64,000 nucleotides of DNA from Candidatus Nanopelagicales bacterium (GCA_030700225.1 JAUYJT010000030.1:453-64452), one strand, 5' to 3'. Positions 14,367 to 38,947 are shown, counted from the first letter of the stretch. Numbers and translations: made by a program. Notes: generated by a model from the letters alone, not told the origin.

Positions 14367-14380
14367 TGATCCTCCATGAC

Positions 14381-15890: not shown

Positions 15891-15922
15891 ACGTGACGGT
15901 GGACAAAACGTGACTGTGGACA
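15891..15922 (+). promoter_or_regulatory. 15-bp direct repeat (period 17) upstream of the priming glycosyltransferase
   Basis: ACGTGACGGTGGACA at 15891 and ACGTGACTGTGGACA at 15908. CATAAT at 15851. Confidence 0.45.
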
Positions 15923-15942
15923 GAACAGGGGAAATTGGCTCA

Positions 15943-17523
15943 ATGTCGAGCAAGGTCCGGGTATTTCCGGAATCTGAGTCCCCTCACGTACCGGTGCCAC
16001 GTGACTCCCCGCTCGCTCAGCCGCTAGCTCAGCCGCTAGCTCAGCCGCTCTCGCGGCCGACGGAGAGCCCGGTCCCAGCCCAGGCCGACTCCCCCACGGC
16101 GAGCGCCCCGACTGCGGAGCCGGACCGGCAGAGCAACCCCGAACTCACACACCCCAGTGCCGTCCAGCGCAAGCGGACCCGGAAGTTGCTTATAGCGGAT
16201 CTCGCTGTCATATGGACGACTGTCGTTGTGCTGCTGCTCCTGTGGGAGCCGTTCCTGCAGATACCGACCGTCGGGTATCACCCTCAGACGTTCATCGCAA
16301 TCGCTCTGATCGTTCTGTGGCCGCTGACGTTGGCCAAGATGCGGGCCTACGCGTCCTGCATCCTCGGCCACGGGCCCGAGGAGTACCGCAGAGTTCTGAT
16401 CGCCAGCGCGATCACTACCGCCATCGTTGGCGCCAGTGCCTATCTCGCCGAGACGGCTGGGGGGCGCAAGTACTTCGGCGCGACGATGCTGCTCGGAACC
16501 TTGGCCCTGCTGGTCACGCGGCATCTCCTGCGCCGCTCGCTCCTGAGGTGGCTGTCTACCGGAGCCCCTCTGCAGCACGTGTTCATAGTCGCCGACGCAC
16601 AGGACAGCGATCGCATCTTCGACGAGATCGGCGACTCCGACGGGCGATTCGCCACAGTGGGCGGATGGAGTCCCGAGGGCTCGGACCTGGACCCCAAGCG
16701 CGTCGTGGAGGCGGCGATCGAGGCTGGCGCTGACAGCATCATCTACTCACCGTCAAGCCACCTGCCCGCGGGCTGGGTCAGGCGTCTCGGGTGGGCGATG
16801 GAAGACACGGAAATGGATCTGATGGTCAACCCATCGCTGATCGAGATCGCCGGTCCACGCTTGTCGATCGCACCCGTCGAGGGACTGCCGCTGCTACGGG
16901 TGGACATGCCGAAGTTCTCCAGACCGACGCGAACCATCAAGCGGGCCACGGACCTCGTGTGGGCCAGCCTTCTGCTCGCGATTCTCGGGATCCCGATGCT
17001 GATCATCGGCCTCGCCATCCGAATCGACAGCCGTGGGCCCGCGATCTTCAGGCAACAGCGCGCCGGACAGGGCGGTAAGACCTTCATCTGCTGGAAGTTC
17101 CGGACCATGGTCGATGGTGCGGACGCCAAGAGGGACGCGCTGCGCGCCGAATTCGGCGACGGCGGCGCGACGTTCAAGATGCGGGACGACCCGCGGGTCA
17201 CGCGGATCGGGAAGTGGCTACGCCATTTCTCGCTCGACGAGCTTCCTCAGCTGATCAACGTTCTGAGAGGTGACATGAGCCTGGTGGGCCCGCGCCCCCA
17301 CCACCTAGATGACCTGGCCCGCTACAGCGGCGATGCCCACCGGCGTCTGCTGATCAAGCCTGGACTTACAGGGCTATGGCAGGTCTCGGGACGCTCGGAC
17401 CTCGGCTGGGAAGAATCGCTGACGCTGGATCTGCACTACATCGAAACCTGGACCCTGTCGCTGGACCTGGTGATCATGATGCGGACCGCGAAGGTTGTCC
17501 TGCTTGGATCCGGGGCCTACTGA
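15943..17523 (+). CDS. polyprenyl glycosylphosphotransferase (WcaJ/CpsE-like priming sugar transferase)
   Basis: N-terminal TM helices; C-terminal KRATD, WKFRTM, DDPRVTRIGK.LR..SLDELPQL.NVL.GDMSLVGPRP and KPGLTGLWQVSGRS. Confidence 0.93.
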   Translation: MSSKVRVFPESESPHVPVPRDSPLAQPLAQPLAQPLSRPTESPVPAQADSPTASAPTAEPDRQSNPELTHPSAVQRKRTRKLLIADLAVIWTTVVVLLLLWEPFLQIPTVGYHPQTFIAIALIVLWPLTLAKMRAYASCILGHGPEEYRRVLIASAITTAIVGASAYLAETAGGRKYFGATMLLGTLALLVTRHLLRRSLLRWLSTGAPLQHVFIVADAQDSDRIFDEIGDSDGRFATVGGWSPEGSDLDPKRVVEAAIEAGADSIIYSPSSHLPAGWVRRLGWAMEDTEMDLMVNPSLIEIAGPRLSIAPVEGLPLLRVDMPKFSRPTRTIKRATDLVWASLLLAILGIPMLIIGLAIRIDSRGPAIFRQQRAGQGGKTFICWKFRTMVDGADAKRDALRAEFGDGGATFKMRDDPRVTRIGKWLRHFSLDELPQLINVLRGDMSLVGPRPHHLDDLARYSGDAHRRLLIKPGLTGLWQVSGRSDLGWEESLTLDLHYIETWTLSLDLVIMMRTAKVVLLGSGAY

Positions 17524-17808: not shown

Positions 17809-18978
17809 TCACCTGATTAGGCGGTTGCGGATCCTAGTCGCATTCCACCGAGCTACCCCCTCCGCGAAAGCTCCGCTGGCCCTCGCCAGGGAGTGCTGCG
17901 GCGCCGCCGACTCGCATCCAAGGCGCAGCGCGTCAAGGCGTTGTTGATCTCCCAGCAGTTGGGCGCAGGCGTCCGCGAACTGGCGCGGGGTCACCGATCC
18001 TGGGAGCCAGACGGAGTTGCCCTCGTCCAGGTACTCAGCCTCAGGGGAGTGAGATGCGCCCGTCCGCGTGACAATCGGCACACCGGCCGTGATCGAATCG
18101 ACAGCGACGAGGCCGATCCAACTGGGGATCAGCATCACGTCCGCTGCGGCGAGGGCGAGCGCCTTTCGATCACCCTCTAGCCTGCCAAGGACGCGTAGTG
18201 GCCACCCTGAGGCTTCCAGCTTCTCGGCGTCGGGTCGGCGAACGCCGTCGCCACCAACCAGGAGGCGGAAGCCAGGGCGAATCCCCGATAGCTCCCTGGC
18301 GGTCTCCATCAGGAAGTCGAACCCCTTGGCGTCATCCACACCGCCCAGGAATAGCCCAGTCAAGCCCGGCAACAGGCCATGTGCCTCCCTGAAATCGGCG
18401 AGCGCTTCGGGAGTCACAGCCGCAAGGTCGCGCTGAAGCGACTCAACGTCGATGGTGTTGTTGACCACGGTCACACGAGAGGCGGGGAAGCCGTGCTGGA
18501 CGACATGCCTGGCCCCACCTTCCGTGTAGGCGAAGAACCAGTCGGTCCGACGAGTGAGCCACTGCTTGAACCACGCCGCAGCGCGCCCCTGGGTCGTGGA
18601 GTAGCTCCGGCCGTGTCCGAACATCGCGACCCTGGGACCGTCGAACGGCATAGCGCACAGCAGTCCGCAGGTTTCAACTTCTGACACGCATTGGTTGACG
18701 ATGATCATGTCAGGGCGTAGGCGTCGCATTGACGGCCGGATTAGCTTCCGGGTGACTGCTCTGCCCCCGAGCGTCAGTCGCTGCGTCCGAACTTCTGTCG
18801 CCCAATCGGATGTTCGGTTCTGGTCGCGCGCTATGGCGGATGGACCCAGCTCACCATGGCACACCCTGAAATCGATGTTCTGCTCGGCCAGACGCTTGTG
18901 AATGTCCTCGAACAGCGCCAGGCGGTACTGCGGGAGCGCGGGTTCTATCAGCAGCAGCCTCGCCGTGTTCTGGCCCAT
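17809..18978 (-). CDS. glycosyltransferase family 4
   Basis: GT-B layout: LFLGGVDDAKG, DVMLIPSWIGLVAVDS..AGVP. Confidence 0.8.
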   Translation of the reverse strand: MGQNTARLLLIEPALPQYRLALFEDIHKRLAEQNIDFRVCHGELGPSAIARDQNRTSDWATEVRTQRLTLGGRAVTRKLIRPSMRRLRPDMIIVNQCVSEVETCGLLCAMPFDGPRVAMFGHGRSYSTTQGRAAAWFKQWLTRRTDWFFAYTEGGARHVVQHGFPASRVTVVNNTIDVESLQRDLAAVTPEALADFREAHGLLPGLTGLFLGGVDDAKGFDFLMETARELSGIRPGFRLLVGGDGVRRPDAEKLEASGWPLRVLGRLEGDRKALALAAADVMLIPSWIGLVAVDSITAGVPIVTRTGASHSPEAEYLDEGNSVWLPGSVTPRQFADACAQLLGDQQRLDALRLGCESAAPQHSLARASGAFAEGVARWNATRIRNRLIR

Positions 18979-19078: not shown

Positions 19079-20200
19079 TCAGAACAAGACTTGCTCATAG
19101 AGTGGAATCACACGGTCTTCAGCGTGCTCGCCGAGCGGGTAGCTCGTGGTTCGGGGCCAGCCCTCGCGCCCGAGCTTCGTGAGGTGCGCGGAGAGCTCAG
19201 CCTCGGTCGGCGGATCGCACACTGCGGCTGGCGCGTGCGCTTCAAACTCAGGGATTCCGGGTGGCAGCACGACGCAGCCGTTGGCGCCCATCGCCTCCAG
19301 CGAGGCCCTTGGCATCCCTTCCGACGGTGACACGTTCACGCAACAAGCAGCCTCTTCCATGAGCCCGAGCGCAACCCGGTGCGGAACCGCGCCGACACGC
19401 TTGACCCGGGTGTTCTTCATCAGGGCTCTGGACTCACGCCGGACCCTCTTCATGGGTCCCGCCAGGACAAGATCGTAGCCAGCCAGATCCGTGTCCTGAA
19501 GCCGGTGAAAACTCTTGAGGATTGTGCTGACGCCCTTGTCGTCCTTCAGGGCACCCACATACAACAGGAACGGCCCATGACAACCAACGCGGGCCAAGGC
19601 CCGGGCCGCTCTCTCACGGTCTGGCTTGGGTAGATCAAACATGACCGGGATGTGGTGAGCCGCACTGCGCTGCGCGAGGCCCGCCTCAATCCGATTCACC
19701 ACATTGAGCGAGCAGCACACGACCTCATCGAAGCAATCGAGGAGTGGTATCTGCTCTTCAGGCAGCAGATTGTCCCGAGCATCCGCGACAAGCTTGATCC
19801 CGTCGTCGCGGCACGTCTGCGCATACTTCGGCAGGTACATCCGGAACGGGCCGGCCCTGTTCAGCAAGCCGGTGTGAATGAGCACCGAGCGCGGCATGAC
19901 CCTTCGCGTGACGTGACCCAGTCGAAGTAGCTCCAAGTTGTTCAGGGCGTAGAGCGGCGCGTTCCTAGCTACACCCAATTCCACGCTGGACCTGGGAGTG
20001 AGCAGCCCAATGTACTCACTTCCGGGCAAGCCGCTAGCGCCTCTCGGCAGCCGCTCGGACACCACCGTTACTCGGTACCCGCAGTTCACGAGGGCCTTGG
20101 TGAGCAGCGTGTAGTACACGGCGCAACCCCCGCTCCCGAACAGCATCGGGGTCACGACCAGCAGATCGGGACGGCCCGGCCGCTCAGAGAACGCTGTCAC
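19079..20200 (-). CDS. glycosyltransferase family 4
   Basis: LYVGALKDDKG and SPSEGMPRASLEAM (EX7E). Start estimated at GTG 20200. Confidence 0.8.
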   Translation of the reverse strand: MTAFSERPGRPDLLVVTPMLFGSGGCAVYYTLLTKALVNCGYRVTVVSERLPRGASGLPGSEYIGLLTPRSSVELGVARNAPLYALNNLELLRLGHVTRRVMPRSVLIHTGLLNRAGPFRMYLPKYAQTCRDDGIKLVADARDNLLPEEQIPLLDCFDEVVCCSLNVVNRIEAGLAQRSAAHHIPVMFDLPKPDRERAARALARVGCHGPFLLYVGALKDDKGVSTILKSFHRLQDTDLAGYDLVLAGPMKRVRRESRALMKNTRVKRVGAVPHRVALGLMEEAACCVNVSPSEGMPRASLEAMGANGCVVLPPGIPEFEAHAPAAVCDPPTEAELSAHLTKLGREGWPRTTSYPLGEHAEDRVIPLYEQVLF

Positions 20201-21182
20201 GATTCCGCGAGAACCACCCCACGGTTGCGTCAATCCCCTCGGACAGACCAACCTCCGGCTTCCACCCCGTGAGTTGCCGAATCCGAGCGCTGTCCGCAGA
20301 ATTGCGCAAAACCTCTCCTGGGTTCGCGGCAATGCTCGTTAGCTGAGCTCCCCAACCGACGGCAGCACACGCCCCAACCAGCGTCTCCATGATCTGGCGG
20401 ACTTGCGTCTCGACTCCGGTAGACACGTGAAACAACGCCGGGACTTGCCCGCTCGGCAGAGCCATCATCGCGACCAGGGCTGCCACAACATCGTCAACGA
20501 AAATGAAGTCCCGCGTCTGGCTTCCTGAACCGGTGACCCGGATTGGCTCTCCGCTAGCCGCGGCGAGGATTGACCGGGCAACGACGCTGCGCTTGCGATG
20601 GGACCCTGGGCCGTAGATGTTGCTGAACCGAAGCGCCACCGCTCGCATGCCAAATGAGTGGTGGTAGGCGCTGCAGTAGCCCTCGATGGCGAGCTTCGCG
20701 GCACCGTAGGGCGACTCCGGCCTCGGTGTGCTGTCCTCGTCGTAGGGTGGTTCCTGTGTTCCCACCGGGGCTCCGCTGGACGCGCAGAGCACGAGGCCAG
20801 CTCCCACGCTTCGGCCGACTTCGAGCACCTTGACGGCACCCACGACGTTCTCGACGGCGTTGCCAACCGGGTCCGAAATCGAGTCGGCAACTCCTGGAAC
20901 ACCGGCCAAATGCACGATGACATCCGCCGAGTCAGCGCAGCCCCGGAGCCACCCTGCATCGGCAATGTCGCCAACAGCCAGTGAGAGACCACCACTTGCG
21001 GGCCAGTCCGCAGATGCGCCCGAGGGCAACAGGTCGTACTCCAGCCCGCGCAAGTCGAGGTCCCCCGGCTGCCCGACTCGCAGATCATCGATCAGCTTCA
21101 CTGAGAAACCGCCACGTTGGCTCAGCGCGTCAGCAAGCGCGGCTCCAACGAAACCGCATCCCCCGGTAACGAGCACTCTCAC
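20184..21182 (-). CDS. NAD-dependent epimerase/dehydratase (extended SDR)
   Basis: TGGCGFVG, YGAAK, LRFSNIYGP and QTRDFIFVDD. Confidence 0.88.
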   Translation of the reverse strand: MRVLVTGGCGFVGAALADALSQRGGFSVKLIDDLRVGQPGDLDLRGLEYDLLPSGASADWPASGGLSLAVGDIADAGWLRGCADSADVIVHLAGVPGVADSISDPVGNAVENVVGAVKVLEVGRSVGAGLVLCASSGAPVGTQEPPYDEDSTPRPESPYGAAKLAIEGYCSAYHHSFGMRAVALRFSNIYGPGSHRKRSVVARSILAAASGEPIRVTGSGSQTRDFIFVDDVVAALVAMMALPSGQVPALFHVSTGVETQVRQIMETLVGACAAVGWGAQLTSIAANPGEVLRNSADSARIRQLTGWKPEVGLSEGIDATVGWFSRNRDSVL

Positions 21183-21216
21183 GGACTAGCCGACACCTTC
21201 CCTGGTGAGCGAATGA

Positions 21217-22380
21217 TCAGGCTCCGCCATCCCACCGGATGCGCGGCAAGATCGCCGCCCGACTCACCTGAATCCGTTCCCTATTCTCTACGAGTCTACG
21301 AAGAGCAATCTGGACGGTTGGACCGATGTCTGGCGTGGGCTTGTAGCCGAGTTCTCTTAGGCGGTCTGTGTCCGGCTTGTAGTAGTGCTCTTGAGCTTCG
21401 ATTCGTGGGTCCTCGATGCTATTGATCTTCACGTCGAGGCCGATCGCCGCCGCCTGTTCCTGCACGATCCCGGCGAGCTCGTTGACCCCAAACACTTGAT
21501 CGAATTGATTGATCACTCGGTACTCGCCCCGCGATGGCGGGTTGTTGATCACCAGGGTCAGGCACTGCATGACATCCTGGAGGGGAAGGAACCCGCGCTT
21601 CTGGTGTCCGGAGCCGTACGGAGTCAGTGGCTGTGAGATCGCGGCTTGAGCGCAGAAGCGGTTGATCACCGTTCCAAAAGCCTCATCGAAATCGAGGCGC
21701 GTGTACAGTCTCTCGTCACCGCCGACCCATTCCGTGTTGGTCCCAAACACAACTCCTTGCATGATGTCTGTGGACCTCAGCCCCCAGATCCGGCACGCGA
21801 AGTTCACGTTGTTGGAGTCGTGGACCTTTGTCTGGTGGTACCAGCTGCCCGCCTCGCGCGGGAACGACAGTGTTGCCTTCCGACCCCGGAACTCGACTTC
21901 GAAGAACCCCTCCGGGATGTCGACGTTAGGCGTCCCGTACTCACCCATCGTTCCCAGCTTCACCAAGTGCGCGTTGGGCACCACGTCCCGCATCGCCCAC
22001 AAGAGGTTGAGGTTGCCGATAACGTTGTTCTGGTGAGTCAGCAAACAATGCTCGCGATCGATCATGCTGAATGGCGCTGAAGGCATCTGGCCCAGCTGAA
22101 CAACGGCTTCTGGCTTGAAATCAGCGAGACATGACTCAACGAACCCATAGTCCTGAAGATCGCCCTCACGGAACGTGATCGAATCCCCTGTCAGTTCCTT
22201 GGCGCCCTGGATTCGCTCTTCCATAGTTGCGATCGGAATAGCTGATTGTGACCCCATCTCAGCCACCAGCCTGCGGCGCAAGAACGAGTCGCAGCCGAAC
22301 ACCTCGTGGCCCGCCGATGTCAGGTGGAGCGCAAGCGGCCACCCAAGATAGCCGTCCAATCCCGATATGAAGATTCTCAT
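21217..22380 (-). CDS. sqdB: UDP-sulfoquinovose synthase
   Basis: GLDGYLGWP, PSAPFSM, HLVKLGTMGEYGTPN.DI.EG, SWYH.TKVHDS, TD.MQGVVFG and RLD.D..FGT.INRF..QA, all SqdB/SQD1 hallmarks. Confidence 0.92.
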   Translation of the reverse strand: MRIFISGLDGYLGWPLALHLTSAGHEVFGCDSFLRRRLVAEMGSQSAIPIATMEERIQGAKELTGDSITFREGDLQDYGFVESCLADFKPEAVVQLGQMPSAPFSMIDREHCLLTHQNNVIGNLNLLWAMRDVVPNAHLVKLGTMGEYGTPNVDIPEGFFEVEFRGRKATLSFPREAGSWYHQTKVHDSNNVNFACRIWGLRSTDIMQGVVFGTNTEWVGGDERLYTRLDFDEAFGTVINRFCAQAAISQPLTPYGSGHQKRGFLPLQDVMQCLTLVINNPPSRGEYRVINQFDQVFGVNELAGIVQEQAAAIGLDVKINSIEDPRIEAQEHYYKPDTDRLRELGYKPTPDIGPTVQIALRRLVENRERIQVSRAAILPRIRWDGGA

Positions 22381-22523
22381 CCTGGCATCGCCTCCCGCCG
22401 TCCTCGTACCTGCCAACTCACGTAGCCAAAGTGCGCTAGGCGGCCAGCCTAGAACATCGACCTGGCCCGGCCACGTCGGGGACGAAGTTGGATTGGAGAC
22501 GCAGGACGTGGCGAACGACTACG

Positions 22524-23381
22524 TCAGCGGTGGCTAGCCCCGTAGTCTGTCCCAGCAAGCACACCGCGCACGGCTCCGTAGATGAAGTAGGCAGGCCACT
22601 CTGGTCCGCCGTGCCGCTTCATGAATCTCGCTTGACTGCCGAGCGGCAGCCCCTTGGGTGACGTGAGCCATTTCCAGCGCTGTGTGATCTTCATCGCGCG
22701 CGTGTCGGGGGCAACGTTCGCGCGGCATTCTCCGACACTGCCAGCCACTTGGATGATCTCAACGCCGAGCTTTCTAGCTCGAAGACCATAGTCCGTGTCA
22801 GCGTAGGCGTGGGCGAACTCGCCATCGATCGGGCCAACTACATGTCGCGCCGACCAGGGCACCAGCACGACATTACCGTTGAACGTGTCTACCCGGACCG
22901 GGGAGGAACGAACCGGAACGGGTGTGAAACGCATCGGGTGGCGCCCTGTCCGGCGCTTCCCACCGTAGCTGCACCTGCCACTTTCCGGATCGACCGTCGC
23001 GCCGACGAGGATCGCCTCCGGGCGCTCCAAGTGAGCTTTCCAGAGTCTCGCGACTGCGTCTGGGGCAAGAGTCACATCATCGTTCAGCCACAAGAGCACC
23101 TCAGAACCCATTCGGTGTGCGTGGTGCTCAGCCAGAGCCATGGACTTGGCCCAGTAGTAGTCGCCCGGCGTGCGCACGATATCGACATTCGGGAATCTCC
23201 GGGCGACGGCCTCCCCCGTCCCGTCGGTGGACCCATCATCGATCAGGACCACAGCCACGTCAGCCTCGCCGAATCGCTGATCCTCCAGGCTAGCCAGACA
23301 CTTAAGAGTCACTTCCCGGCGGTTGTGGCAGGCCAGAATCGCGACCAGTCGACGACAGTGTTCGATCTGAAGGATTTCCAA
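22524..23381 (-). CDS. glycosyltransferase family 2
   Basis: CHNRRE.TL.CL, DDGSTDG, LWLNDD, DTFNGN and D.DYGLRA. Confidence 0.87.
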   Translation of the reverse strand: MEILQIEHCRRLVAILACHNRREVTLKCLASLEDQRFGEADVAVVLIDDGSTDGTGEAVARRFPNVDIVRTPGDYYWAKSMALAEHHAHRMGSEVLLWLNDDVTLAPDAVARLWKAHLERPEAILVGATVDPESGRCSYGGKRRTGRHPMRFTPVPVRSSPVRVDTFNGNVVLVPWSARHVVGPIDGEFAHAYADTDYGLRARKLGVEIIQVAGSVGECRANVAPDTRAMKITQRWKWLTSPKGLPLGSQARFMKRHGGPEWPAYFIYGAVRGVLAGTDYGASHR

Positions 23382-23474: not shown

Positions 23475-24344
23475 CTATCGCGCATCCTCCCCCCGGAGAT
23501 CACCTCCCAGGAGGCCAATGTCAATCCTAAGTTGCCGCTGGAACGTTGCGCTCATTCCGACAGAGAGAGACTTCCAGGGCGCACTGTGGGCGTCGCAGAG
23601 GTCGCGCAAGGCGCTGTTCCACGCCCCATTCGACATCACGACCAGCTGATCAGCCATGTGCTGAATGGCTGTACTCAGTTCGAAATGCGTCGTCCCATAG
23701 TCCGGGACAGAGTCGCTCACGAAGAAGCCGACTCGCTCGCCCGCGATGACGCCTGGCAGAGCATCGTCGCTGCGCTTGACCGAGCGCGTCCACCGGGCCG
23801 CCCCCTTGGCGTCGACCAACCAACACGAGTCCGGGTCGGGATCGATCGTGATCAAGTGACCGTCGTGCCCTTCCTCAGCGTTCCGTTCGAGTGCGCGAAG
23901 CATGACCATTGTGCCCAGTCCGTGCTTCGCGCCAGACTCAATCGCGAGCTGGGGCCGCGTGGCGCGCAGGGCCAGATACCTCGCCGCGTGCCGACCAAGC
24001 GGTGGCCTTGAAAGGGCGTGCGGCTGCCAGCGTGAACGCCGATAGATCCGAGCAGCGAGCTCGGAATCACCGTCAAGCTCCGACAGCCACCCCATCATCC
24101 GCTCCTCGGGGACTCCGAACAGCTGCGAGATCGGAACGACAATGTCCCGAGGATCGGCAAGTTCGAAACTGAACGTGTCCAGCTCTGGGTGTGTTGCAAC
24201 GTATCGGATGACCAAGGTCGGGTGGTCCGAGATACGGACGCCAGAGCGTCGAACGATCCGAGTCTTCTTCATCCACCGAAGCCTGTTCACGCGGCGGCCA
24301 ACGTACTTGACGGCCGAGTTCACGACTGTGGATCCTTCTCCCAT
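23475..24344 (-). CDS. class I SAM-dependent methyltransferase (Methyltransf_24-like)
   Basis: RP..AIESGAKHGLGT, LITID and FVSDS. Start trimmed to ATG 24344. Confidence 0.65.
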   Translation of the reverse strand: MGEGSTVVNSAVKYVGRRVNRLRWMKKTRIVRRSGVRISDHPTLVIRYVATHPELDTFSFELADPRDIVVPISQLFGVPEERMMGWLSELDGDSELAARIYRRSRWQPHALSRPPLGRHAARYLALRATRPQLAIESGAKHGLGTMVMLRALERNAEEGHDGHLITIDPDPDSCWLVDAKGAARWTRSVKRSDDALPGVIAGERVGFFVSDSVPDYGTTHFELSTAIQHMADQLVVMSNGAWNSALRDLCDAHSAPWKSLSVGMSATFQRQLRIDIGLLGGDLRGEDAR

Positions 24345-25816
24345 ACGCCCGAACCGCAGTCGGCCCCCGCTGGCGCACAGATCCGATGATGAGCCCGCTC
24401 CCTCATTCGCCAATAGGCGGACAGTGGGTGCGGGAACCTCCACCAACCGTCCACGACAATGAAGGAGGCATCCGGTGTCCAGGCCAAAGTGTGGACACCC
24501 AACGGCGACGCGAGCTGTTGCCGCTCGTCGACAAGTGAAGTCGGCTCAAGCCTCCGCAACCTTGACTGCGTGGAGTCCGCGAGCCCTGGAGGGGATTCGA
24601 TCAACGAGACCGCCATCCCGTAGTTGCCGGCACAGTCCTGAACCGCGCGCACATTCCGCCGAAGGTCGAGGCTGCCGCCGCTGCGAGCGTACCGGATGTC
24701 GACGTACGATCCGCTGGGCTCAAGCATCCAGTCCTGCGGGGAACCACCGCCCCGCCGCCAAACCCGCGCAACGGATTGCCCGTCGTAGCGACGGTCCGTG
24801 CCGGCGACTACCCAGCCACTTGGGCCGTCCGCCAGTTGCGGGTCGACGACGCCTGTGGGCAGATAGCGCCCCGGCATCTTGCGCCACTGGGCACCGGGAT
24901 GCGTGAAAGTGAAGAGGGGCGTCGGGGACTCGCAGGTGTCTGCGGTGGCGACCCATCCGCCACCCGATCGCATAGCCTGCGGGAAGGCCAGATGGTGCTC
25001 GGTCTGGAGGACGACGATCCGCTCAGCGACTCGTCGACTTTCGATTCGAAGCGCCGCAATCTGACCCAAGCCCCTGGTCCGCTCATACTCCTCGACGAAG
25101 ACCCAGGTGCGTCCATCGTCATCTATCACGGGAAAGGGATCCGCCCAGAACAGACCGATGCTGCCCGCTTCGATCCACGAGACGGGCAACGGGCCGCTTC
25201 CCCCAACGTCCTCTAGGGACGCACCATCCAAGACGCCGACGCGCCACATCCGACTGAAGCCGAACCCACGCAGGATCCTTCCGCCGCGCCGAGCCACTCC
25301 GGCCGCGCTCATGCCAGCTGAGCTAATCTTCCGTCCCTGCACACCGCCCGCAGAGATCGCGTCGGCTCGGACCCCAGCATTCCCCGCGCCGACTTCGATA
25401 GTGGCCGCGAACGCCGCCATCGCGTTGCGCATCGTCGACCTCACCGTCATGCCGACGGCGATGAACACTGGCGTCGCTGCGGCTCCGTCCGGACCAGTGA
25501 CAACCAGGTCAAGTTCCGCTGGAGCCTGTCGGGCGGCACTGCGCAGACGAGTCGAACGGCCCAGCGACGAACCGTCGCTGTCAGCGATGGACCAGCATGG
25601 AATACCGAGTTGCTCGCATCTGGCTCTAAGCCCTCGCTCGGGACCGAGCAGAACGACCGCCCCCGGCCGGGCATCGATAGGCCGATCGAACACTTCGGCC
25701 ATCACCACGGGTGTGTAGAACTCAGCCCGTGCTTGAAGGGTGCGCCTCAGGTAGTTGGCTGCGCAGAGGCTCAAGCGGCAAGCTGATTGTGGCAAAACAA
25801 TGGCGACGGGCGTCAC
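24320..25816 (-). CDS. protein with a GINT1-like (glucosamine inositolphosphorylceramide transferase / GH43-like beta-propeller) domain
   Basis: FWADPF, WVFVEEY..RG.G.I, HHLAFP, VDP and R.VQDC...YG. Start uncertain. Confidence 0.6.
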   Translation of the reverse strand: MTPVAIVLPQSACRLSLCAANYLRRTLQARAEFYTPVVMAEVFDRPIDARPGAVVLLGPERGLRARCEQLGIPCWSIADSDGSSLGRSTRLRSAARQAPAELDLVVTGPDGAAATPVFIAVGMTVRSTMRNAMAAFAATIEVGAGNAGVRADAISAGGVQGRKISSAGMSAAGVARRGGRILRGFGFSRMWRVGVLDGASLEDVGGSGPLPVSWIEAGSIGLFWADPFPVIDDDGRTWVFVEEYERTRGLGQIAALRIESRRVAERIVVLQTEHHLAFPQAMRSGGGWVATADTCESPTPLFTFTHPGAQWRKMPGRYLPTGVVDPQLADGPSGWVVAGTDRRYDGQSVARVWRRGGGSPQDWMLEPSGSYVDIRYARSGGSLDLRRNVRAVQDCAGNYGMAVSLIESPPGLADSTQSRLRRLEPTSLVDERQQLASPLGVHTLAWTPDASFIVVDGWWRFPHPLSAYWRMRERAHHRICAPAGADCGSGVWEKDPQS

Positions 25817-25910
25817 AGGCTGCTCCTGCCGCGCAAGAGCGAACTCCACGTCCGGTAGCTTGCTGGCATCACCCGAATCTACTCTGGAGCCTCAGGTGGA
25901 TCTCTCCCGC

Positions 25911-26588
25911 GTGGCACAGCGGAAGTTGGCTGGCGTCCGTTGGCGGCTTTTGCGCGCGCTCTCCAACCGAGCCATCTCACGCCCGCACGACACCAGGCTA
26001 GTCCGATTCGGCAGCGACTACGGCGGCTGGTGGATACCGGACACACTGCTGCACGAAGACTCCGTCGTGTACAGCGCAGGCGTCGGCGAGGACACGACTT
26101 TCGATGAAGCCATTGTCAAGCGATTCGGATGCGTCGTTCACGCCTTCGACCCAACCCCCCGGGCCGTGCAACACGCATCAACCATCACCGACCCTCGTTT
26201 CGTCATGCATCCAGTCGGTATCTGGAAATCCGATACGACCCTCAAGCTGTTCGCCCCTGCCAACCGTTCATTCGTGTCGCATTCATACGACGACCGGGAC
26301 GGGACCGGGGTTGCGATCGAAGCGCGTTGTCAGACTCTCAGCTCGATCATGGCCGAGTTAGGACACGACCACATTGACCTGCTCAAGATGGACATCGAGG
26401 GAGCGGAAGCACCTGTTATCGATGATCTGCTTGAGGATCGGCGCGTGCGCCCTCGCTGCATCGCGGTCGAGATGGAAGCGCGCGAGCCAGTCCTTGAGTC
26501 TCGTCGACGCATCTCCAGGCTGATCGGCGCGGGATACTCCCTGCTTCACGTCGAAGATCGTTGCTACGTGTTCTTGAAGACCGCCTGA
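25911..26588 (+). CDS. FkbM family methyltransferase
   Basis: GSDYGGWW, VYSAGVGED.TFD, FDPTP and IDLLKMDIEGAE. Start uncertain (25896 or 25911). Confidence 0.85.
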   Translation: MAQRKLAGVRWRLLRALSNRAISRPHDTRLVRFGSDYGGWWIPDTLLHEDSVVYSAGVGEDTTFDEAIVKRFGCVVHAFDPTPRAVQHASTITDPRFVMHPVGIWKSDTTLKLFAPANRSFVSHSYDDRDGTGVAIEARCQTLSSIMAELGHDHIDLLKMDIEGAEAPVIDDLLEDRRVRPRCIAVEMEAREPVLESRRRISRLIGAGYSLLHVEDRCYVFLKTA

Positions 26589-26660: not shown

Positions 26661-27599
26661 CTACGCGTACCTGCCCCTGAACCACTCGATCGTTGACGGC
26701 AGGCCCTGCTCCAAGTCGACTTCGGGCTTCCACGCCAGAACTGCCGCCGCCTGGGTAATGTCAGGCTGCCGCTGCCGAGGATCGTCCTCTGGCAGGGGCA
26801 AATACCGAACCGACTGATCAGGGTCGATGAGAGCGGTGACGCGTTCGGCCAGTTCGCGGACGGCGATCTCGTTCGGATTCCCAAGGTTGATCGGACCGAT
26901 GACGTCGTGTTCTGTGCTCATCATCCGGACCAGGCCGTCCACCAGATCGTCCACGTAGCAGAACGACCTCGTCTGAGAGCCGTCACCGTAGACGGTGAGC
27001 TGCTCCCCGCGCAGCGCCTGCATGATGAAGTTGCTCACGACCCGCCCGTCATTGGGCTGCATGCGCGGGCCGTAGGTGTTGAAGATCCGCACAACCTTGA
27101 TCGGCAGGTCGTGCTGGCGCCGGTAGTCGAAGAACAGAGTCTCGGCGCAGCGTTTGCCCTCGTCGTAGCAGGACCGCACTCCTATGGGATTGACATGACC
27201 CCAATAGTCCTCGCTCTGCGGATGCACGCTCGGGTCCCCGTAGACCTCCGAAGTGGAGCTGAGCAGGATCTTGGCCCCCGTGCGTTTGGCCAGCCCCAGC
27301 ATGTTGATCGATCCGTGGACTGATGTCTTCGTCGTCTGGACCGGATCGCGCTGGTAGTGGATCGGGGAAGCCGGGCACGCGAGGTGGTAGATCTCGTCCA
27401 CTTCGACGTAGAGGGGGAACGTCACGTCGTGGCGCAGGACCTCGAAGCGCGGATGAGTCAGCAGATGCTCGATGTTCTGTTTGGAAGTCGAGTAGTAGTT
27501 ATCCACGCAGAGCACTTCGTGACCGTCACCAAGGAGCCGCTCGCAAAGGTGGCTGCCGATGAATCCGGCACCCCCGGTGACCAGAACACGTCGTCTCAT
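26661..27599 (-). CDS. uxs: UDP-glucuronate decarboxylase (UDP-xylose synthase)
   Basis: [52 protein letters not shown]. Confidence 0.93.
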
Positions 27600-27673
27600 G
27601 TGACTCCTGTTTCGCTCGGTCGCCGCACGGCCAGGCAGAGCGATGGACCCCAACATACGCGCGGGAAGTGCCA

Positions 27674-28510
27674 CTACCGACGGCGAGTTCGGGATTGGCG
27701 AGGCGTCCTGGCAGCGGCGATGAGGAATCGAGGGTTGCCCCAGAGGTAGCGACGCCACAGCCGTCGGGGCTCCGTGCCAAGCCGGTACGCCCACTCCAGC
27801 CCCGAGGCGCGCATCCATTTGGGCGCCTGCGGTTTCGCCCCAGCTATGAAGTCGAACGCCGCCCCAGTAGCTATGGCTACGACCGGGAGGGACCTTGACA
27901 ACCGGGCCACTTCCCAATCCTGCTTCGGAGTGCCAAGCCCCACCCACACGATCTGTGCACCCGAATCGGCGATTCGCTTGTCCTGAGCGAACTGCTCCTC
28001 GTGGGACTGCGCTCGGAATGGTGGGCTTTCAACGCCGACAATGTCAGCGTTCGGGAACCTGAGTCTAATCACAGACGATAACCTGTCCACTGTCTCGCGA
28101 GTGCCGCCGAGCAGGTAGTGCCGCGGGCCGATAGTGGACGAGGCCGCGAGGACTGCCTCCATTACGTCAGACCCACGCACCTGCTGCCACTCGTCGGACG
28201 ACCGCCTATGCAATCTCCTGCCCGCCCAAACAACAGGAACTCCATCGGAGAAGACGGCTGAGTCCCTGCCACGCAGGACCCGAGCGTATTCATCATCAGC
28301 GTCCGCGAGAGCGACCGTGTAGGCGTTCGCGAAATGAACAGCGATCCCCCGGACCTGGGGGCGCCGCCCGCCCGCCGTCAGGCGGGTGGGGGAAGGCCCG
28401 GGTTCCTGACTCGCGTCCAGAACAGCTGACACGACCTGCGACATGGGTGCCACACGGAAGGGAACGCGACCTACTTCGGCGCACGGCAGCTCCAGAAGAG
28501 GATTGGTCAT
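27674..28510 (-). CDS. WecB/TagA/CpsF family glycosyltransferase
   Basis: [35 protein letters not shown]...[21 protein letters not shown]. Confidence 0.92.
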
Positions 28511-29454
28511 CGCCGCGCCTGGTTTTCGACGTACCACTGGTAGGTCGCCGCGATGCCCTCCCGGAGTCCGACCTTCGGCTCCCATCCAAGAGACCGCAGC
28601 CGCGAGACGTCCAGAAGCTTGCGACGCACGCCGTCGGGCTTGGATGAGTCCCACTTGATGGCTCCACTGAACCCGACGACCTCAGCCACGATCGCAGCCA
28701 ACTCCGCGACCGTCATGTCCGTCCCGGTCCCGACGTTGATTGTCTCGTCGGAGTCGTAGTGCCGGAGTAGATGCTCAACCGCCGAGGCGACATCGTCGGT
28801 GTGCAGGAATTCCCTCCTCGGGGAGCCGGTCCCCCAGAGCTCCACTTCAGAATCGCCCGCCGCCGCCGCGTCGTGCAACTTGCGAATCAAAGCGGGCAGC
28901 ACATGCGAGGTCTGCGGATCGAAGTTGTCCCCGGGACCGTAGAGGTTCGTCGGCATAGCGGAAATCCAATGCACGCCGAACTGATGCCGATACGACTTCA
29001 CGGCGATGATCCCGGAGATCTTCGCGATGGCGTAGGCATCGTTGGTGGGCTCGAGTGGACCGGTCAGCAGGGCCGACTCCGGAATCGGCTGCGGGGCCAG
29101 CTTGGGGTAGATGCAGGACGACCCGAGGAAGAGCAACCGGTCCACTCCGGCTGAGAACGCCGCTTCGAACAGGTTGGTCTGAATGCGCAGGTTGTCGTTC
29201 AGGAAGTCGACTGGTGACGACGAATTTGCAAGGATGCCGCCGACTTTCGCCGCCGCCACCACAACGACCTCCGGCCGCGCGGTCGTGACGGCGTCGAACG
29301 TGGCGTCGCGGTCTCGTAGATCGACCTCGGGCGACCGGAAGCCGATGAGGTTCGTGAATCCCTGGCCCTCAAGACGCCGCCAGACTGCCGAACCGACCAG
29401 GCCGCTGTGTCCTGCGATGTAGACGGGCAGGTCAGGCGGCAGGCGATAGGACAT
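28507..29454 (-). CDS. fcl: GDP-L-fucose synthase
   Basis: [44 protein letters not shown] and REFLH.DD. Confidence 0.95.
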
Positions 29455-29565
29455 GGGCTCCCTCGGTACATTCGCGCGGGCGGGACACCGTATCTTCGAT
29501 GCAGGCGATCACAACTATGCCCACCGCGTGGCAACATAGACTATCCCGGAGCGAGGTACCACACG

Positions 29566-38863: not shown

Positions 38864-38947
38864 GCTCTCCCCTTGTGTTCGGTCCGGGATCACCGTCAAG
38901 ACATCACGATGCTAGTTGCTGAGTCCAGGCGCAGCTCCGCAGGGACC

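What the first reader, a model, noticed from the sequence alone, without database searches (positions are those of the whole stretch)
19079..23381. UDP-sulfoquinovose synthase embedded among glycan glycosyltransferases
sqdB normally serves sulfolipid (SQDG) synthesis, and in Sulfolobales (Agl3) an N-glycan. Here it is co-oriented with a GT2, an SDR epimerase and two GT4s inside a polysaccharide locus. This suggests sulfoquinovose or an epimer is built into a cell-wall or capsular glycan, with one GT4 as a new sulfoquinovosyltransferase.
Basis: partly seen in the sequence, partly recalled or inferred. Interest (0 to 1): 0.65.

Follow-up and report, generated by a model that had tools for sequence, protein, structure and literature searches.

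The report
Sulfosugar gene module in surface-glycan locus
An uncultured actinobacterium (probably order Nanopelagicales) carries, inside a roughly 47-kb cell-surface sugar-chain locus, a horizontally acquired gene set headed by the enzyme that makes the sulfonated sugar sulfoquinovose, with a partner epimerase and a coupled glycosyltransferase; this points to a sulfonated sugar in a bacterial surface glycan, known so far only from archaea, but it rests on gene context alone.

Summary
On the minus strand lie GT4b (17809-18978), GT4a (19079-20200), a GalE/PelX-type SDR (20184-21182), an SqdB/SQD1-family enzyme (21217-22380) and a GT2 (22524-23381). They sit in a large glycan locus with a priming transferase, a WecG-type GT, GDP-fucose genes, a Wzy_C protein, an ABC flippase and pseudaminic-acid genes.

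SqdB aligns full length to Arabidopsis SQD1 and keeps the TMG...YHxxK fingerprint. It is single-copy and absent from 40 of 40 relatives. Its GC3 is lower than that of core genes, and its nearest relatives lie outside the class.

One metagenomic sister locus keeps eight genes of the module, including the 17-nt SDR/GT4a overlap. SDR332 is not the housekeeping GalE. Six of eight blindly picked relatives sit next to an SqdB-family gene.

Best reading: UDP-glucose plus sulfite gives UDP-sulfoquinovose. SDR332 possibly epimerises it to UDP-sulfofucose, whose biosynthesis is unknown, and GT4a transfers it to a lipid-linked glycan.

Not shown: enzyme activities, the acceptor, and a comparison with SqdX (no reference sequence could be obtained). 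I found no paper describing this. This scan has noted similar loci in at least 59 genomes.

The parts
21217..22380 (-). SqdB/SQD1-family enzyme, predicted UDP-sulfoquinovose synthase (387 aa; the listed ORF extends to 22416 from a TTG)
   Evidence: NF041015 scores 532 bits, E 7.5e-160, over the full model. The match to SQD1 1qrr is 387 bits over residues 2-383. GxxGxxG, T145-M146-G147, Y182-H183, K186, Q209 and R327 are kept. It is single-copy in the genome. dN/dS against the sister locus is about 0.05.
20184..21182 (-). SDR332, a GalE/PelX-type extended SDR and predicted nucleotide-sugar 4-epimerase partnered with SqdB; candidate UDP-sulfoquinovose 4-epimerase
   Evidence: Pfam Epimerase, E 2.4e-49. 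The best solved relatives are PelX 6wjb and a UDP-glucose 4-epimerase 7ys8. The Ser-Tyr-Lys triad aligns and there is no dehydratase D/E pair. It scores only 98.5 bits on the galE model, while a canonical GalE (352 bits) lies elsewhere in the genome. Homologues lie next to SqdB-family genes in 25 of 80 loci and in 6 of 8 blind picks.
19079..20200 (-). GT4a, a GT-B glycosyltransferase whose start overlaps the SDR332 stop by 17 nt; candidate transferase for the sulfosugar
   Evidence: Only the C-terminal Glycos_transf_1 domain is detected, E 6.6e-12. It is 57% identical to the gene in the same position, with the same 17-nt overlap, in L084. The subfamily is small: 82 representatives at E<=1e-30 among 1.84 billion. 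It is absent from 40 relatives.
17809..18978 (-). GT4b, a second GT4 glycosyltransferase and last gene of the co-oriented run
   Evidence: Pfam Glyco_trans_1_4, Glyco_transf_4 and Glycos_transf_1. It is 44.5% identical to the C-terminal half of a 684-aa fusion protein in L084.
22524..23381 (-). GT2 glycosyltransferase upstream of sqdB
   Evidence: Pfam Glycos_transf_2, E 2.2e-15. The best NCBIfam match is EpsD-like; it is not PpgS/ArnC-like. It is 48% identical to a GT2 in L084.
23475..24323 (-). Methyltransf_24-family methyltransferase
   Evidence: Pfam PF13578, E 2.4e-9. It is about 40% identical to a gene in L084.
24320..25816 (-). ORF of unknown function; the conserved part is the C-terminal ~310 aa (24320-25249), a beta-propeller domain
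   Evidence: No Pfam or NCBIfam match. Residues 199-464 are 39% identical to the N-terminal half of the L084 fusion with GT4b. The AlphaFold model is all-beta (pLDDT 67, pTM 0.76). Foldseek hits are GH43, GH117, GH130 and sialidase/pseudaminidase propellers at TM 0.44-0.49.
25896..26588 (+). FkbM-family methyltransferase, divergent from the operon
   Evidence: Pfam Methyltransf_21, E 3.7e-13. It is 50% identical to a gene in L084.
15910..17523 (+). Priming polyprenyl-phosphate sugar-phosphate transferase (Bac_transf)
   Evidence: Pfam PF02397, E 3.9e-64.
26661..30549 (.). UXS/ArnA-like SDR, WecG/TagA-family GT and GDP-fucose synthase (minus strand), plus GDP-mannose 4,6-dehydratase (plus strand)
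   Evidence: Pfam and NCBIfam: WecG E 1.2e-47, Fcl NF047922 446 bits, Gmd PF16363 E 1.2e-137.
36594..40882 (.). Wzy_C-domain membrane protein (36594-37883, +), PseB-like dehydratase (37880-38899, -) and fused ABC transporter (38948-40882, -): candidate export and transfer machinery
   Evidence: Pfam Wzy_C E 2.5e-7 (31.0 bits, just under the 31.7-bit gathering score), Polysacc_synt_2 E 5.8e-96, ABC_tran E 6.9e-30.

Best explanation
A horizontally acquired sulfosugar module sits inside the large variable surface-glycan locus of a Nanopelagicales-type actinobacterium. It runs from 17809 to 26588 and comprises a beta-propeller protein, an MT24 methyltransferase, GT2, SqdB, SDR332, GT4a and GT4b, plus a divergent FkbM methyltransferase.

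Proposed pathway:
1. [quoted passage not shown] This is inferred from full-length homology and an intact fingerprint. The sulfite would come from the genome's own assimilatory sulfate-reduction genes.
2. The coupled GalE/PelX-type SDR332 acts on that product, most plausibly as a C4 epimerase giving UDP-6-deoxy-6-sulfo-D-galactose (UDP-sulfofucose). This is inferred from conserved pairing; my odds are about 45%. Otherwise sulfoquinovose itself is used.
3. GT4a, whose start codon overlaps the SDR gene, transfers the sulfosugar onto a polyprenyl-diphosphate-linked oligosaccharide started by the Bac_transf enzyme (inferred).
4. The other GTs and the two methyltransferases extend and O-methylate the chain.
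5. The ABC flippase and the Wzy_C protein export it and polymerise or ligate it to the wall, or to protein (inferred).

Shown here: gene identities, synteny, phyletic pattern and purifying selection. No enzymatic step is shown.
For: SqdB identity:
- NF041015 scores 532 bits over the full model.
- The match to SQD1 1qrr is 387 bits over residues 2-383.
- The family fingerprint [ST]MG...Yx3K (PMC8987622) and H183, Q209 and R327 are kept.
- Only one of the two control genomes that ring (Synechococcus elongatus, Sulfolobus acidocaldarius) passes the 575-bit cut-off. Scoring below it is therefore not disqualifying.

Glycan rather than core-lipid role:
- sqdB sits in one co-oriented run with short gaps and overlaps, between a priming transferase and WecG, fcl, gmd, Wzy_C and ABC genes.
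- It is absent from 40 of 40 genomes of the same family and order. So are orthologues of SDR332 (at most 35% identity) and of GT4a.
- Other SqdB-like genes of the class are only 36-47% identical, against 60-63% for Desulfobacterota and Chloroflexota sequences.
- sqdB is 58.5% GC against 64.8% for the genome. Module GC3 is 0.71-0.76 against 0.85-0.88 in core genes.

Module conservation:
- The only closer SqdB in 5.8 billion proteins (77%) lies in L084.
- L084 also holds the SDR (65%), GT4a (57%, same 17-nt overlap), GT2 (48%), FkbM (50%) and MT24 (40%).
- L084 also has a fusion of the propeller domain with GT4b.
- dN/dS is 0.05-0.17.

SDR coupling:
- 25 of 80 GTDB sqdB loci have the SDR within 1.3 kb, and 22 within about 100 nt. 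None of these is in the Anaerolineae asd-sqdB-hisD arrangement.
- 6 of 8 SDR332 homologues chosen without regard to context lie next to an SqdB-family gene. These include divergent SqdB types only 36-44% identical to this one.
- Three minimal cassettes hold only an SqdB-like gene, a PpgS-like GT2, the SDR and in two cases a Wzx. Two of the three (L108, L110) also hold a GT-C (PMT_2/TMEM260) gene. One lipid-linked sugar is transferred, so both enzymes should serve that one sugar.
- The genome has a separate canonical GalE.

Other support:
- Sulfofucose exists in nature and no biosynthetic route is known (PMC12421959).
- Sulfite supply: a PAPS/APS reductase lies between two sulfite-reductase-like genes.
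- S. meliloti SqdD has no hit in the genome, and SqdC does not match SDR332.
Against: - No biochemical or expression data could be obtained.
- No SqdX/SQD2 reference could be obtained, so a cyanobacterial-type sulfolipid transferase role for GT4a or GT4b is not excluded by phylogeny.
- The SqdB here, together with its sister, carries six substitutions at otherwise near-invariant positions: H96Q, E99Q, Y105F, S/T271V, E296Q and N325D (SQD1 numbering). H96 corresponds to Agl3 His95, whose alanine mutant is inactive (PMC4388408). The chemistry could therefore differ.
- Two of eight SDR332 homologues are not next to sqdB. One sits in a galactolipid-type cluster with UDP-galactopyranose mutase, which shows that the subfamily can be an ordinary UDP-hexose 4-epimerase.
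- The subfamily motif YGPxSx[HR]KxSVV does not separate linked from unlinked members.
- The GT4a family is not found beside sqdB in the other fetched loci, apart from L084.
- The GT4a structure model was poor (pLDDT 56).
Confidence: 0.55

Rival explanations
1. Sulfolipid pathway. SqdB makes UDP-sulfoquinovose, and GT4a or GT4b is an SqdX-like enzyme that transfers it to diacylglycerol or another lipid, giving SQDG or a related sulfoglycolipid as a phosphate-sparing membrane lipid. On this reading the position inside the glycan locus is incidental.
For: SqdX and SQD2 are GT4 enzymes (established knowledge). Two GT4 genes follow sqdB. An accessory, horizontally acquired sulfolipid operon would also be absent from relatives. 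No SqdX reference could be compared.
Against: - The module kept in the sister locus includes two methyltransferases, a GT2 and a propeller-GT4 fusion, which a two-step lipid pathway does not need.
- GT4a and GT4b give no match at E<=1e-3 to the NCBIfam diacylglycerol glycosyltransferase models (Mgs, Dgs, IagA/BgsA). An sqdB-adjacent GT4 from a Planctomycetes MAG does match them.
- No GT4 next to sqdB in 80 other loci resembles GT4a at E<=1e-5.
- SqdD is absent.
- A dedicated epimerase partner is not part of any known SQDG pathway.
Confidence: 0.15
2. Sulfoquinovose itself, not its epimer, enters the glycan. SDR332 is a UDP-hexose or UDP-HexNAc 4-epimerase that supplies a second sugar of the same repeat unit (galactose or GalNAc), or balances the UDP-Glc pool.
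For: The closest solved relatives are UDP-GlcNAc and UDP-Glc 4-epimerases. One homologue at 42% identity sits with MGDG-synthase-like genes and UDP-galactopyranose mutase and without sqdB, where UDP-Gal supply is the obvious role. The family motif is the same in linked and unlinked members.
Against: The genome already has a canonical GalE. The pairing holds across two deeply diverged SqdB clades and many kinds of glycan locus. It also holds in minimal one-sugar cassettes, where a second sugar is not needed. Gaps of 0-30 nt are typical.
Confidence: 0.3
3. The enzyme has shifted in substrate or chemistry. The divergent SqdB pair (window plus L084) acts on another UDP-sugar such as UDP-GlcNAc, or adds another nucleophile. 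It would then feed a different sulfonated or modified sugar, possibly linked to the nonulosonic-acid genes of the same locus.
For: - The pair sits on a long stem (0.68 substitutions per site) as sister to all 80 other bacterial sequences.
- The combination of six substitutions at near-invariant positions is unique among 210 other family members. N325D lies next to R327.
- Pse-type genes lie in the same locus here and within 6 kb in L084.
- Earlier scan notes raise a sulfonated nonulosonic acid for related loci (unchecked).
Against: - All residues of the catalytic fingerprint and the other conserved substrate-site residues checked are kept.
- H96Q, E99Q and Y105F each occur singly in other family members, so those positions tolerate change.
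- Strong purifying selection fits a conserved function.
- No residue-level evidence for a different substrate could be obtained, because the SQD1 structure paper was not available.
Confidence: 0.1
4. The genes are decaying or non-functional passengers in a variable island.
For: The genes are of foreign origin and lie on a long branch.
Against: The reading frames are intact. dN/dS is 0.05 for SqdB, the most conserved gene of the module, and 0.15-0.17 for SDR332 and GT4a. The overlap architecture is conserved in L084.
Confidence: 0.02

Closest known systems
SqdB-SqdX (cyanobacteria) and SQD1-SQD2 (plants): the sulfolipid SQDG pathway
   Same: The first enzyme is the same. The window protein aligns full length to SQD1 (387 bits) and keeps the TMG...YHxxK fingerprint. 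A GT4-family transferase lies downstream, as SqdX does in Synechococcus elongatus (PMC13436972).
   Different: The genes sit in a polysaccharide locus. There is a dedicated 4-epimerase-type SDR between sqdB and the GT4, and two methyltransferases, a GT2 and a second GT4 are conserved with it. The organism is a non-phototroph and its relatives lack the genes. GT4a belongs to a small separate subfamily. Orthology to SqdX could not be tested.
Agl3 pathway of Sulfolobus acidocaldarius (sulfoquinovose in an N-glycan)
   Same: UDP-sulfoquinovose synthase serves a lipid-linked surface glycan rather than a membrane lipid (PMC4388408). The NCBIfam model, which appears to be centred on Agl3, scores the window protein at 532 bits.
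   Different: The known pathway is archaeal, uses a dolichol carrier and AglB, and has no epimerase partner that I know of. The residue equivalent to the essential Agl3 His95 is Gln here, and the Arg101 equivalent is Pro, as in all 80 bacterial homologues.
Sulfofucose (6-deoxy-6-sulfo-D-galactose) in the Thermoplasma acidophilum N-glycan and in Fucaceae glycolipids
   Same: Sulfofucose is the C4 epimer of sulfoquinovose, which is the product expected if a GalE-type enzyme acts on UDP-sulfoquinovose. It occurs in a surface glycan (PMC12421959).
   Different: No biosynthetic genes are known for sulfofucose, so there is nothing to compare at sequence level. I could not reach the Thermoplasma genome to see whether its sqdB homologue has an SDR332-type neighbour.
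sqdB-sqdD-sqdC operon of Sinorhizobium meliloti and Rhodobacter sphaeroides
   Same: It is a bacterial operon headed by SqdB that also contains an SDR-type protein, SqdC.
   Different: S. meliloti SqdB is only 39% identical. SqdD (GT8) has no hit anywhere in this genome, and SqdC does not match SDR332.
PelX (Pseudomonas protegens UDP-GlcNAc 4-epimerase, PDB 6WJB) and GalE-type 4-epimerases
   Same: These are the best solved relatives of SDR332. The Ser, Tyr and Lys catalytic residues align and there is no dehydratase acid/base pair.
   Different: SDR332 scores only 98.5 bits on the galE model, whose cut-off is 262. It belongs to a subfamily with the loop motif YGPxSx[HR]KxSVV, which is mostly found next to SqdB-family genes.
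Lipid-carrier sugar systems (ArnC/ArnT, GtrB/GtrC, mycobacterial PpgS/Rv3779)
   Same: Related loci from other phyla combine an SqdB-like gene and the SDR with a PpgS-like GT2. Two add a Wzx-like flippase and two add a GT-C enzyme.
   Different: The window has no PpgS-like GT2 and no GT-C. Here the sulfosugar would be added in the cytoplasm by a GT-B enzyme (GT4a).

Membership tests
UDP-sulfoquinovose synthase (SqdB/SQD1/Agl3; EC 3.13.1.1) | Full-length homology to characterised members | tested here: met
   SQD1 1qrr: 387 bits, E 7.5e-115, residues 2-383 against 3-382. NF041015: E 7.5e-160, model positions 1-383 of 384. It is 39% identical to S. meliloti SqdB.
UDP-sulfoquinovose synthase (SqdB/SQD1/Agl3; EC 3.13.1.1) | Score at or above the curated NCBIfam cut-off (575 bits) | tested here: not met
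   The score is 532 bits. Only one of the two control genomes that ring (Synechococcus elongatus, Sulfolobus acidocaldarius) passes the cut-off. None of 401 genomes of the class passes it. The cut-off is therefore narrower than the enzyme family.
UDP-sulfoquinovose synthase (SqdB/SQD1/Agl3; EC 3.13.1.1) | Fingerprint [ST]MG...Yx3K, with His after the Tyr and GxxGxxG for NAD+ | tested here: met
   GLDGYLG, GTMGEYG and SWYHQTK are present. T145, M146, G147, Y182, H183 and K186 are identical to SQD1 and to at least 209 of 210 other members. The fingerprint is taken from PMC8987622.
UDP-sulfoquinovose synthase (SqdB/SQD1/Agl3; EC 3.13.1.1) | Residues whose alanine mutants inactivate Agl3 (His95, Arg101, Met145, Tyr182, Lys186) | tested here: inconclusive
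   Met, Tyr and Lys are kept. The His95 equivalent (SQD1 H96) is Gln here and in L084, against His in 208 of 210 others. The Arg101 equivalent is Pro, as in all 80 closest bacterial homologues.
UDP-sulfoquinovose synthase (SqdB/SQD1/Agl3; EC 3.13.1.1) | Conversion of UDP-glucose plus sulfite to UDP-sulfoquinovose | not testable with these tools
   This needs an enzyme assay. Sulfite supply is plausible, because PAPS/APS reductase and sulfite-reductase-like genes lie on contig C68.
SQDG sulfolipid pathway, cyanobacterial/plant type | An SqdX/SQD2-orthologous sulfoquinovosyltransferase | not testable with these tools
   No SqdX or SQD2 sequence could be obtained. There is no NCBIfam model, no PDB entry and no cyanobacterial locus among those fetched. 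Indirect evidence only: GT4a and GT4b have no relatives next to sqdB in 80 loci and no match to diacylglycerol-GT models.
SQDG sulfolipid pathway, alphaproteobacterial type (sqdBDC) | SqdD (GT8) and SqdC present | tested here: not met
   tblastn of S. meliloti SqdD against the whole genome gives no hit at E<=1e-3. SqdC hits only fcl and galE weakly and does not hit SDR332.
GalE-type UDP-hexose 4-epimerase (for SDR332) | Extended-SDR fold with a Ser/Thr-Tyr-Lys triad and no dehydratase acid/base pair | tested here: met
   The sequence has ASSG...YGAAK, and the Ser aligns with the PelX residue that is Ala in PDB entry 6wj9. There is no D/E after the Ser.
GalE-type UDP-hexose 4-epimerase (for SDR332) | Equivalog-level match to galE (TIGR01179, cut-off 262 bits) | tested here: not met
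   The score is 98.5-103 bits. The genome's real GalE scores 352 bits on contig C75.
Lipid-carrier-dependent surface glycan locus (Wzy- or Pgl-like) | Priming phosphoglycosyl transferase, several GTs, nucleotide-sugar genes, a flippase and a Wzy_C-type polymerase or ligase in one locus | tested here: met
   Present in the locus are Bac_transf, WecG, three GT4 genes, a GT2, a GT1-like gene, fcl and gmd. Also present are a UXS-like SDR, Pse-type genes, a fused ABC transporter and a Wzy_C protein. No Wzx was found in the window. The Wzy_C match (31.0 bits) lies just under Pfam's gathering score of 31.7.

The most novel reading that the evidence does not exclude
The conserved SqdB plus GalE-like SDR pair is the missing biosynthetic route to UDP-sulfofucose, the C4 epimer of sulfoquinovose. 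GT4a is then the first bacterial sulfofucosyl or sulfoquinovosyl transferase acting on a lipid-linked glycan. On this reading non-phototrophic bacteria, including relatives of abundant freshwater Actinomycetota, display C-sulfonated sugars on their surface. That would be an unrecognised source of sulfosugars in the organosulfur cycle.
Probability: 0.4. Interest if true: 0.8.

Novelty: new variant of a known kind. Interest (0 to 1): 0.6.

Why it matters
Sulfoquinovose is treated in current reviews as coming from the sulfolipid SQDG of phototrophs (PMC13436972). Outside lipids, the only documented uses I found are archaeal N-glycans.

A 2025 paper states that no biosynthetic pathway for the epimer sulfofucose is known, and that the sugar has been reported only twice (PMC12421959).

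If this module works as proposed, three things follow:
- It names candidate genes for UDP-sulfofucose synthesis, which can be tested with two recombinant enzymes.
- It adds a permanently anionic, sulfatase-resistant sugar to the repertoire of bacterial surface glycans.
- It identifies heterotrophic bacteria as producers of sulfosugars that feed sulfoglycolytic and sulfofucolytic degraders.

For this genome specifically, it marks the sulfosugar genes as strain-variable, horizontally acquired surface decoration, the kind of trait expected to matter for phage and grazer recognition.

Tried and rejected
1. GT4 against SqdX/SQD2 phylogeny: not possible.
- The one genome-contig scan went on SqdB.
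- The only locus labelled cyanobacterial (L025, 'Pleurocapsa') nests among Anaerolineae and has their asd-sqdB-hisD synteny.
- NCBIfam has no SqdX model that any sqdB-adjacent GT4 hit.
- PDB gave only weak generic GT4 hits.
- The plasmid collection gave sqdBDC-type loci only.

2. Word-indexed search with GT4a found only itself. The full HMMER search then showed a small family, but those hits cannot be looked up for genomic context.

3. GT4a-family HMM against all fetched loci: only L084 is a true member. L060 and L061 are weak. A general link between the GT4a family and sqdB is therefore not supported.

4. A clade-specific basic residue in SDR332 that could bind the sulfonate: K197 and S199 looked specific against PelX and GalE. 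They are also present in the two homologues not linked to sqdB, so I rejected them as a marker.

5. Thermoplasma test of the sulfofucose idea: no handle to that genome, and the genome search by locus handles failed.

6. SQD1 structure paper, for the roles of H96, E99, Y105, E296 and N325: not held.

7. Structure of GT4a: poor model (pLDDT 56, pTM 0.46), not used.

8. Promoter and terminator scan and Rfam scan: nothing informative in the module.

10. Pseudogene or decay reading: rejected by dN/dS.

11. SDR332 as housekeeping GalE: rejected.

12. SDR332 as SqdC: rejected.

Full report
**Observation.** The minus strand between 17.8 and 25.8 kb carries a co-oriented run of genes:

| Gene | Coordinates | Note |
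|---|---|---|
| ORF of unknown function | 24320-25816 | conserved part is 24320-25249 |
| Methyltransf_24 methyltransferase | 23475-24323 | |
| GT2 | 22524-23381 | |
| SqdB/SQD1-family enzyme | 21217-22380 | |
| Extended SDR (SDR332) | 20184-21182 | |
| GT4a | 19079-20200 | |
| GT4b | 17809-18978 | |
| FkbM methyltransferase | 25896-26588 | divergent, plus strand |

Gaps are short. MT24 overlaps the upstream ORF by 4 nt, and GT4a overlaps SDR332 by 17 nt. The TTG-started ORFs for SqdB and GT4a are longer than the gene calls found in public assemblies.

Around the run lies a glycan locus of about 47 kb. It holds:
- a Bac_transf priming transferase (15910-17523)
- a UXS-like SDR, a WecG/TagA-family GT, fcl and gmd
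- a GT1-like gene, an AsnB-like gene and further methyltransferases
- a Wzy_C protein, a PseB-like dehydratase, a fused ABC transporter and another GT4
- pseudaminic-acid-type genes

**Organism.** The window is almost all of contig C3 of a 2.6-Mb, 96%-complete MAG with 64.8% GC. A protein at least 90% identical to its Fcl is deposited from 'Candidatus Nanopelagicales bacterium'. I therefore take it to be a monoderm actinobacterium of that order. This is the only basis for the name.

**Is the SqdB real?**
- It aligns over its full length to the Arabidopsis SQD1 crystal sequence (387 bits) and to NCBIfam NF041015 (532 bits).
- It falls below the 575-bit cut-off. Only one of the two control genomes that ring passes that cut-off, and no genome of the class does.
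- The neighbouring model number belongs to a Sulfolobus Agl protein, so the model seems centred on archaeal Agl3. That last point is my inference.
- The family fingerprint [ST]MG...Yx3K (PMC8987622), GxxGxxG, H183, Q209 and R327 are intact.
- S. meliloti SqdB, from an established sulfolipid operon, is 39% identical. The family's proven members therefore bracket this protein.
- The genome has a PAPS/APS reductase flanked by two sulfite-reductase-like genes, so sulfite is available.

**A caveat on the enzyme.** In a tree of 94 family members, the window protein and its only close relative form a 100%-supported pair. The pair sits on a long stem as sister to all 80 other bacterial sequences.

Together they carry H96Q, E99Q, Y105F, S/T271V, E296Q and N325D (SQD1 numbering). 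Among 210 other members N325 is invariant and position 271 is never Val. H96Q occurs once, and E99Q and Y105F occur seven or eight times each, separately. H96 corresponds to Agl3 His95, whose alanine mutant is inactive (PMC4388408).

Between the two loci SqdB is the most conserved gene of the module (dN 0.17, dN/dS about 0.05, with dS saturated). It is therefore a working enzyme, but an altered substrate or mechanism cannot be excluded.

**Origin.**
- sqdB is single-copy and absent from all 40 sampled genomes of the same family and order.
- In the class, 21 of 401 genomes have an SqdB-like gene, but those are only 36-47% identical. The best matches (60-63%) are from Desulfobacterota, Chloroflexota and other phyla.
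- Orthologues of SDR332 and GT4a are likewise missing from relatives.
- sqdB has 58.5% GC, and the module genes have GC3 of 0.71-0.76 against 0.85-0.88 for fadB and thiolase.

The module is a horizontal acquisition in a variable surface-glycan locus.

**Sister locus.** Among 5.8 billion proteins only one is closer than 65% (P0003, 77%). Its 15-kb contig (L084, 63% GC) carries these genes:
- SDR, 65% identical
- GT4a, 57%, with the same 17-nt overlap with the SDR gene
- GT2, 48%
- FkbM methyltransferase, 50%
- MT24 methyltransferase, 40%
- one 684-aa protein that fuses the conserved C-terminal domain of the window's unknown ORF (39%) to GT4b (44.5%)
- PseI- and PseC-type genes, about 70%

Gene order differs, so the set of eight functions is kept by selection rather than by recent common descent of a block. 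The unknown domain models as an all-beta propeller. It has weak similarity to GH43, GH117, GH130 and sialidase/pseudaminidase folds (TM 0.44-0.49).

**The SDR partner.** SDR332 has the Ser-Tyr-Lys triad of 4-epimerases and no dehydratase acid/base pair. Its best solved relatives are PelX (a UDP-GlcNAc 4-epimerase, by my recollection of that entry) and a UDP-glucose 4-epimerase. It is not the housekeeping GalE, which lies on contig C75 and scores 352 bits against 98.5 for SDR332.

Starting from sqdB:
- 25 of the 80 closest GTDB loci have an SDR332 homologue within 1.3 kb, and 22 within about 100 nt.
- None of the 25 has the Anaerolineae arrangement asd-sqdB-hisD, which accounts for about 25 of the other 55.
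- The 25 are enriched for PpgS-like GT2 genes (10 of 25 against 6 of 55) and for Wzx genes.

- Six lie directly beside an SqdB-family gene. Three of these partner genes are of the divergent type, about 36% identical to the window's, close to the identity seen for S. meliloti SqdB.
- Three of the six (L107, L108, L110) are minimal cassettes. Each holds an SqdB-like gene, a GT2-DUF2304 (PpgS-like) gene and the SDR.
- L107 and L108 also have a Wzx, and L108 and L110 also have a GT-C (PMT_2/TMEM260) gene. Such a cassette should transfer a single sugar, so both nucleotide-sugar enzymes most simply act in series on that one sugar.
- Two picks are exceptions. One is in Sneathiella chinensis. The other sits in a cluster with MGDG-synthase-like genes and UDP-galactopyranose mutase, which shows that the subfamily can also be a plain UDP-hexose 4-epimerase.
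- The loop motif YGPxSx[HR]KxSVV is common to all of them and does not mark the linked ones.

**Link to the literature.** The C4 epimer of sulfoquinovose, sulfofucose, is known from the Thermoplasma acidophilum N-glycan and from Fucaceae lipids. A 2025 paper states that no biosynthetic pathway for it has been identified (PMC12421959).

A 2026 review of sulfoquinovose cycling treats SQDG made by SqdB-SqdX as the source and does not mention bacterial glycans (PMC13436972). Full-text searches found no paper that describes sulfoquinovose in a bacterial polysaccharide locus.

An SqdB plus 4-epimerase pair is the obvious candidate route to UDP-sulfofucose. I could not test it against the Thermoplasma genome.

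**Which transferase?** GT4a is the best candidate because its start overlaps the SDR gene in both loci. It has a recognisable GT-B C-terminal domain with an EX7E motif (direct reading).

It belongs to a small subfamily of its own: 82 representatives at E<=1e-30 and 286 at E<=1e-10 among 1.84 billion. The few members that carry a name are called 'glycosyltransferase involved in cell wall biosynthesis' by JGI.

Neither GT4 matches NCBIfam's diacylglycerol glycosyltransferase models, whereas an sqdB-adjacent GT4 from a Planctomycetes MAG does. S. meliloti SqdD has no homologue in the genome, and SqdC does not match SDR332. A comparison with SqdX itself could not be made, and this is the main gap.

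**Mechanism proposed.**
1. UDP-Glc plus sulfite gives UDP-sulfoquinovose, by SqdB.
2. UDP-sulfoquinovose gives UDP-sulfofucose, by SDR332 (about 45%). Otherwise sulfoquinovose is used directly.
3. GT4a transfers the sulfosugar to a polyprenyl-diphosphate-linked oligosaccharide primed by the Bac_transf enzyme.
4. GT2, GT4b with its propeller partner and the other GTs extend the chain. The MT24 and FkbM enzymes O-methylate it.
5. The fused ABC transporter flips it, and the Wzy_C protein polymerises or ligates it.

No Wzx is present, and Wzy_C domains also occur in O-oligosaccharyltransferases (established knowledge). The acceptor could therefore be a wall polymer, an exopolysaccharide or a protein. 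All steps are inferred. What is shown is gene identity, linkage, phyletic pattern and selection.

**Earlier notes of this scan.** At least 59 other genomes have been flagged with sqdB in glycan loci, and several agents independently proposed the UDP-sulfofucose idea and lipid-carrier variants. These are unchecked AI notes and I do not count them as evidence.

They do show that this window is one instance of a recurrent, apparently undescribed pattern. What is particular here:
- an actinobacterial host
- a cytoplasmic GT4-coupled form
- an eight-gene conserved module
- the unusual substitutions in SqdB

**Verdict.** I rate it a new variant of a known kind, with interest 0.6.

Tools that could not be used: the look-up of sequencing runs and therefore read laying (closed), and a second genome-contig scan (cap reached).

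Noticed in passing
window 24320-25816 (-); L084 4459-6513: The 498-aa ORF has no family match. Only its C-terminal ~310 aa are conserved (motifs WADPF, QDC..YG, HTL), and they model as a glycosidase-like beta-propeller. In L084 this domain is fused to the GT4b homologue in one 684-aa protein, which suggests the two act together. The Ala/Gly-rich N-terminal 190 aa of the window ORF are probably not translated; a Met lies at 25249.
   Followed up: partly
window 21217-22380 (-): SqdB and its sister share six substitutions at near-invariant family positions (H96Q, E99Q, Y105F, S/T271V, E296Q, N325D in SQD1 numbering). The combination is unique among 210 other members, yet the gene is the most conserved of the module.
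   Followed up: partly
L107 4271-10625; L108 4227-12676; L110 4371-12826: These are minimal cassettes from metagenomes and one NCBI assembly. Each holds a divergent SqdB-like gene, GT2-DUF2304 (PpgS-like) and the SDR, flanked by PF00884 'sulfatase'-family genes. L107 and L108 add a Wzx, and L108 and L110 add a GT-C (TMEM260_N/PMT_2). They look like a lipid-carrier system that places one sulfosugar on an extracytoplasmic target.
   Followed up: partly
L113 3596-10500: An SDR332 homologue (42% identical) lies without sqdB among three MGDG-synthase-like GT28 genes, two LPG_synthase_TM genes and a UDP-galactopyranose mutase. This looks like a galactofuranose glycolipid cluster.
   Followed up: no
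window 36594-40882: There is a fused ABC transporter (PglK/MsbA-like) and a Wzy_C protein, but no Wzx in the window. The locus could be a block-transfer (Pgl-like, possibly protein O-glycosylation) system rather than a Wzx/Wzy polysaccharide system.
   Followed up: no
L008, L014, L017, L025 and about 25 other loci, around position 8000-15000: In Anaerolineae-type genomes sqdB sits in a conserved housekeeping block: pheA, asd, sqdB, hisD, an APH-like kinase and hisG. No glycosyltransferase or SDR partner is nearby. The MAG labelled 'uncultured Pleurocapsa sp.' (L025) shares this block and nests among Anaerolineae in the SqdB tree, so its label is doubtful.
   Followed up: partly
NCBIfam NF041015, control genomes: The curated cut-off of the UDP-sulfoquinovose synthase model (575 bits) is passed in only one of the two control genomes that ring, and in none of 401 genomes of the class. 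Bacterial SqdB proteins will therefore usually be named only 'NAD-dependent epimerase/dehydratase'.
   Followed up: partly
L115 (Pseudonocardia autotrophica plasmid pPA12743CP, 281945-283093): A mobilizable 289-kb actinobacterial plasmid carries an SqdB-like gene (46% identical). It lies divergent from a GT2 and near a MurJ-like flippase, a GNAT and a cysteine-synthase-family gene.
   Followed up: no
genome contig C68:7886-11441: Two sulfite-reductase-like genes flank a PAPS/APS reductase, forming a compact assimilatory sulfate-reduction cluster. A second PAPS_reduct gene lies on C41.
   Followed up: no
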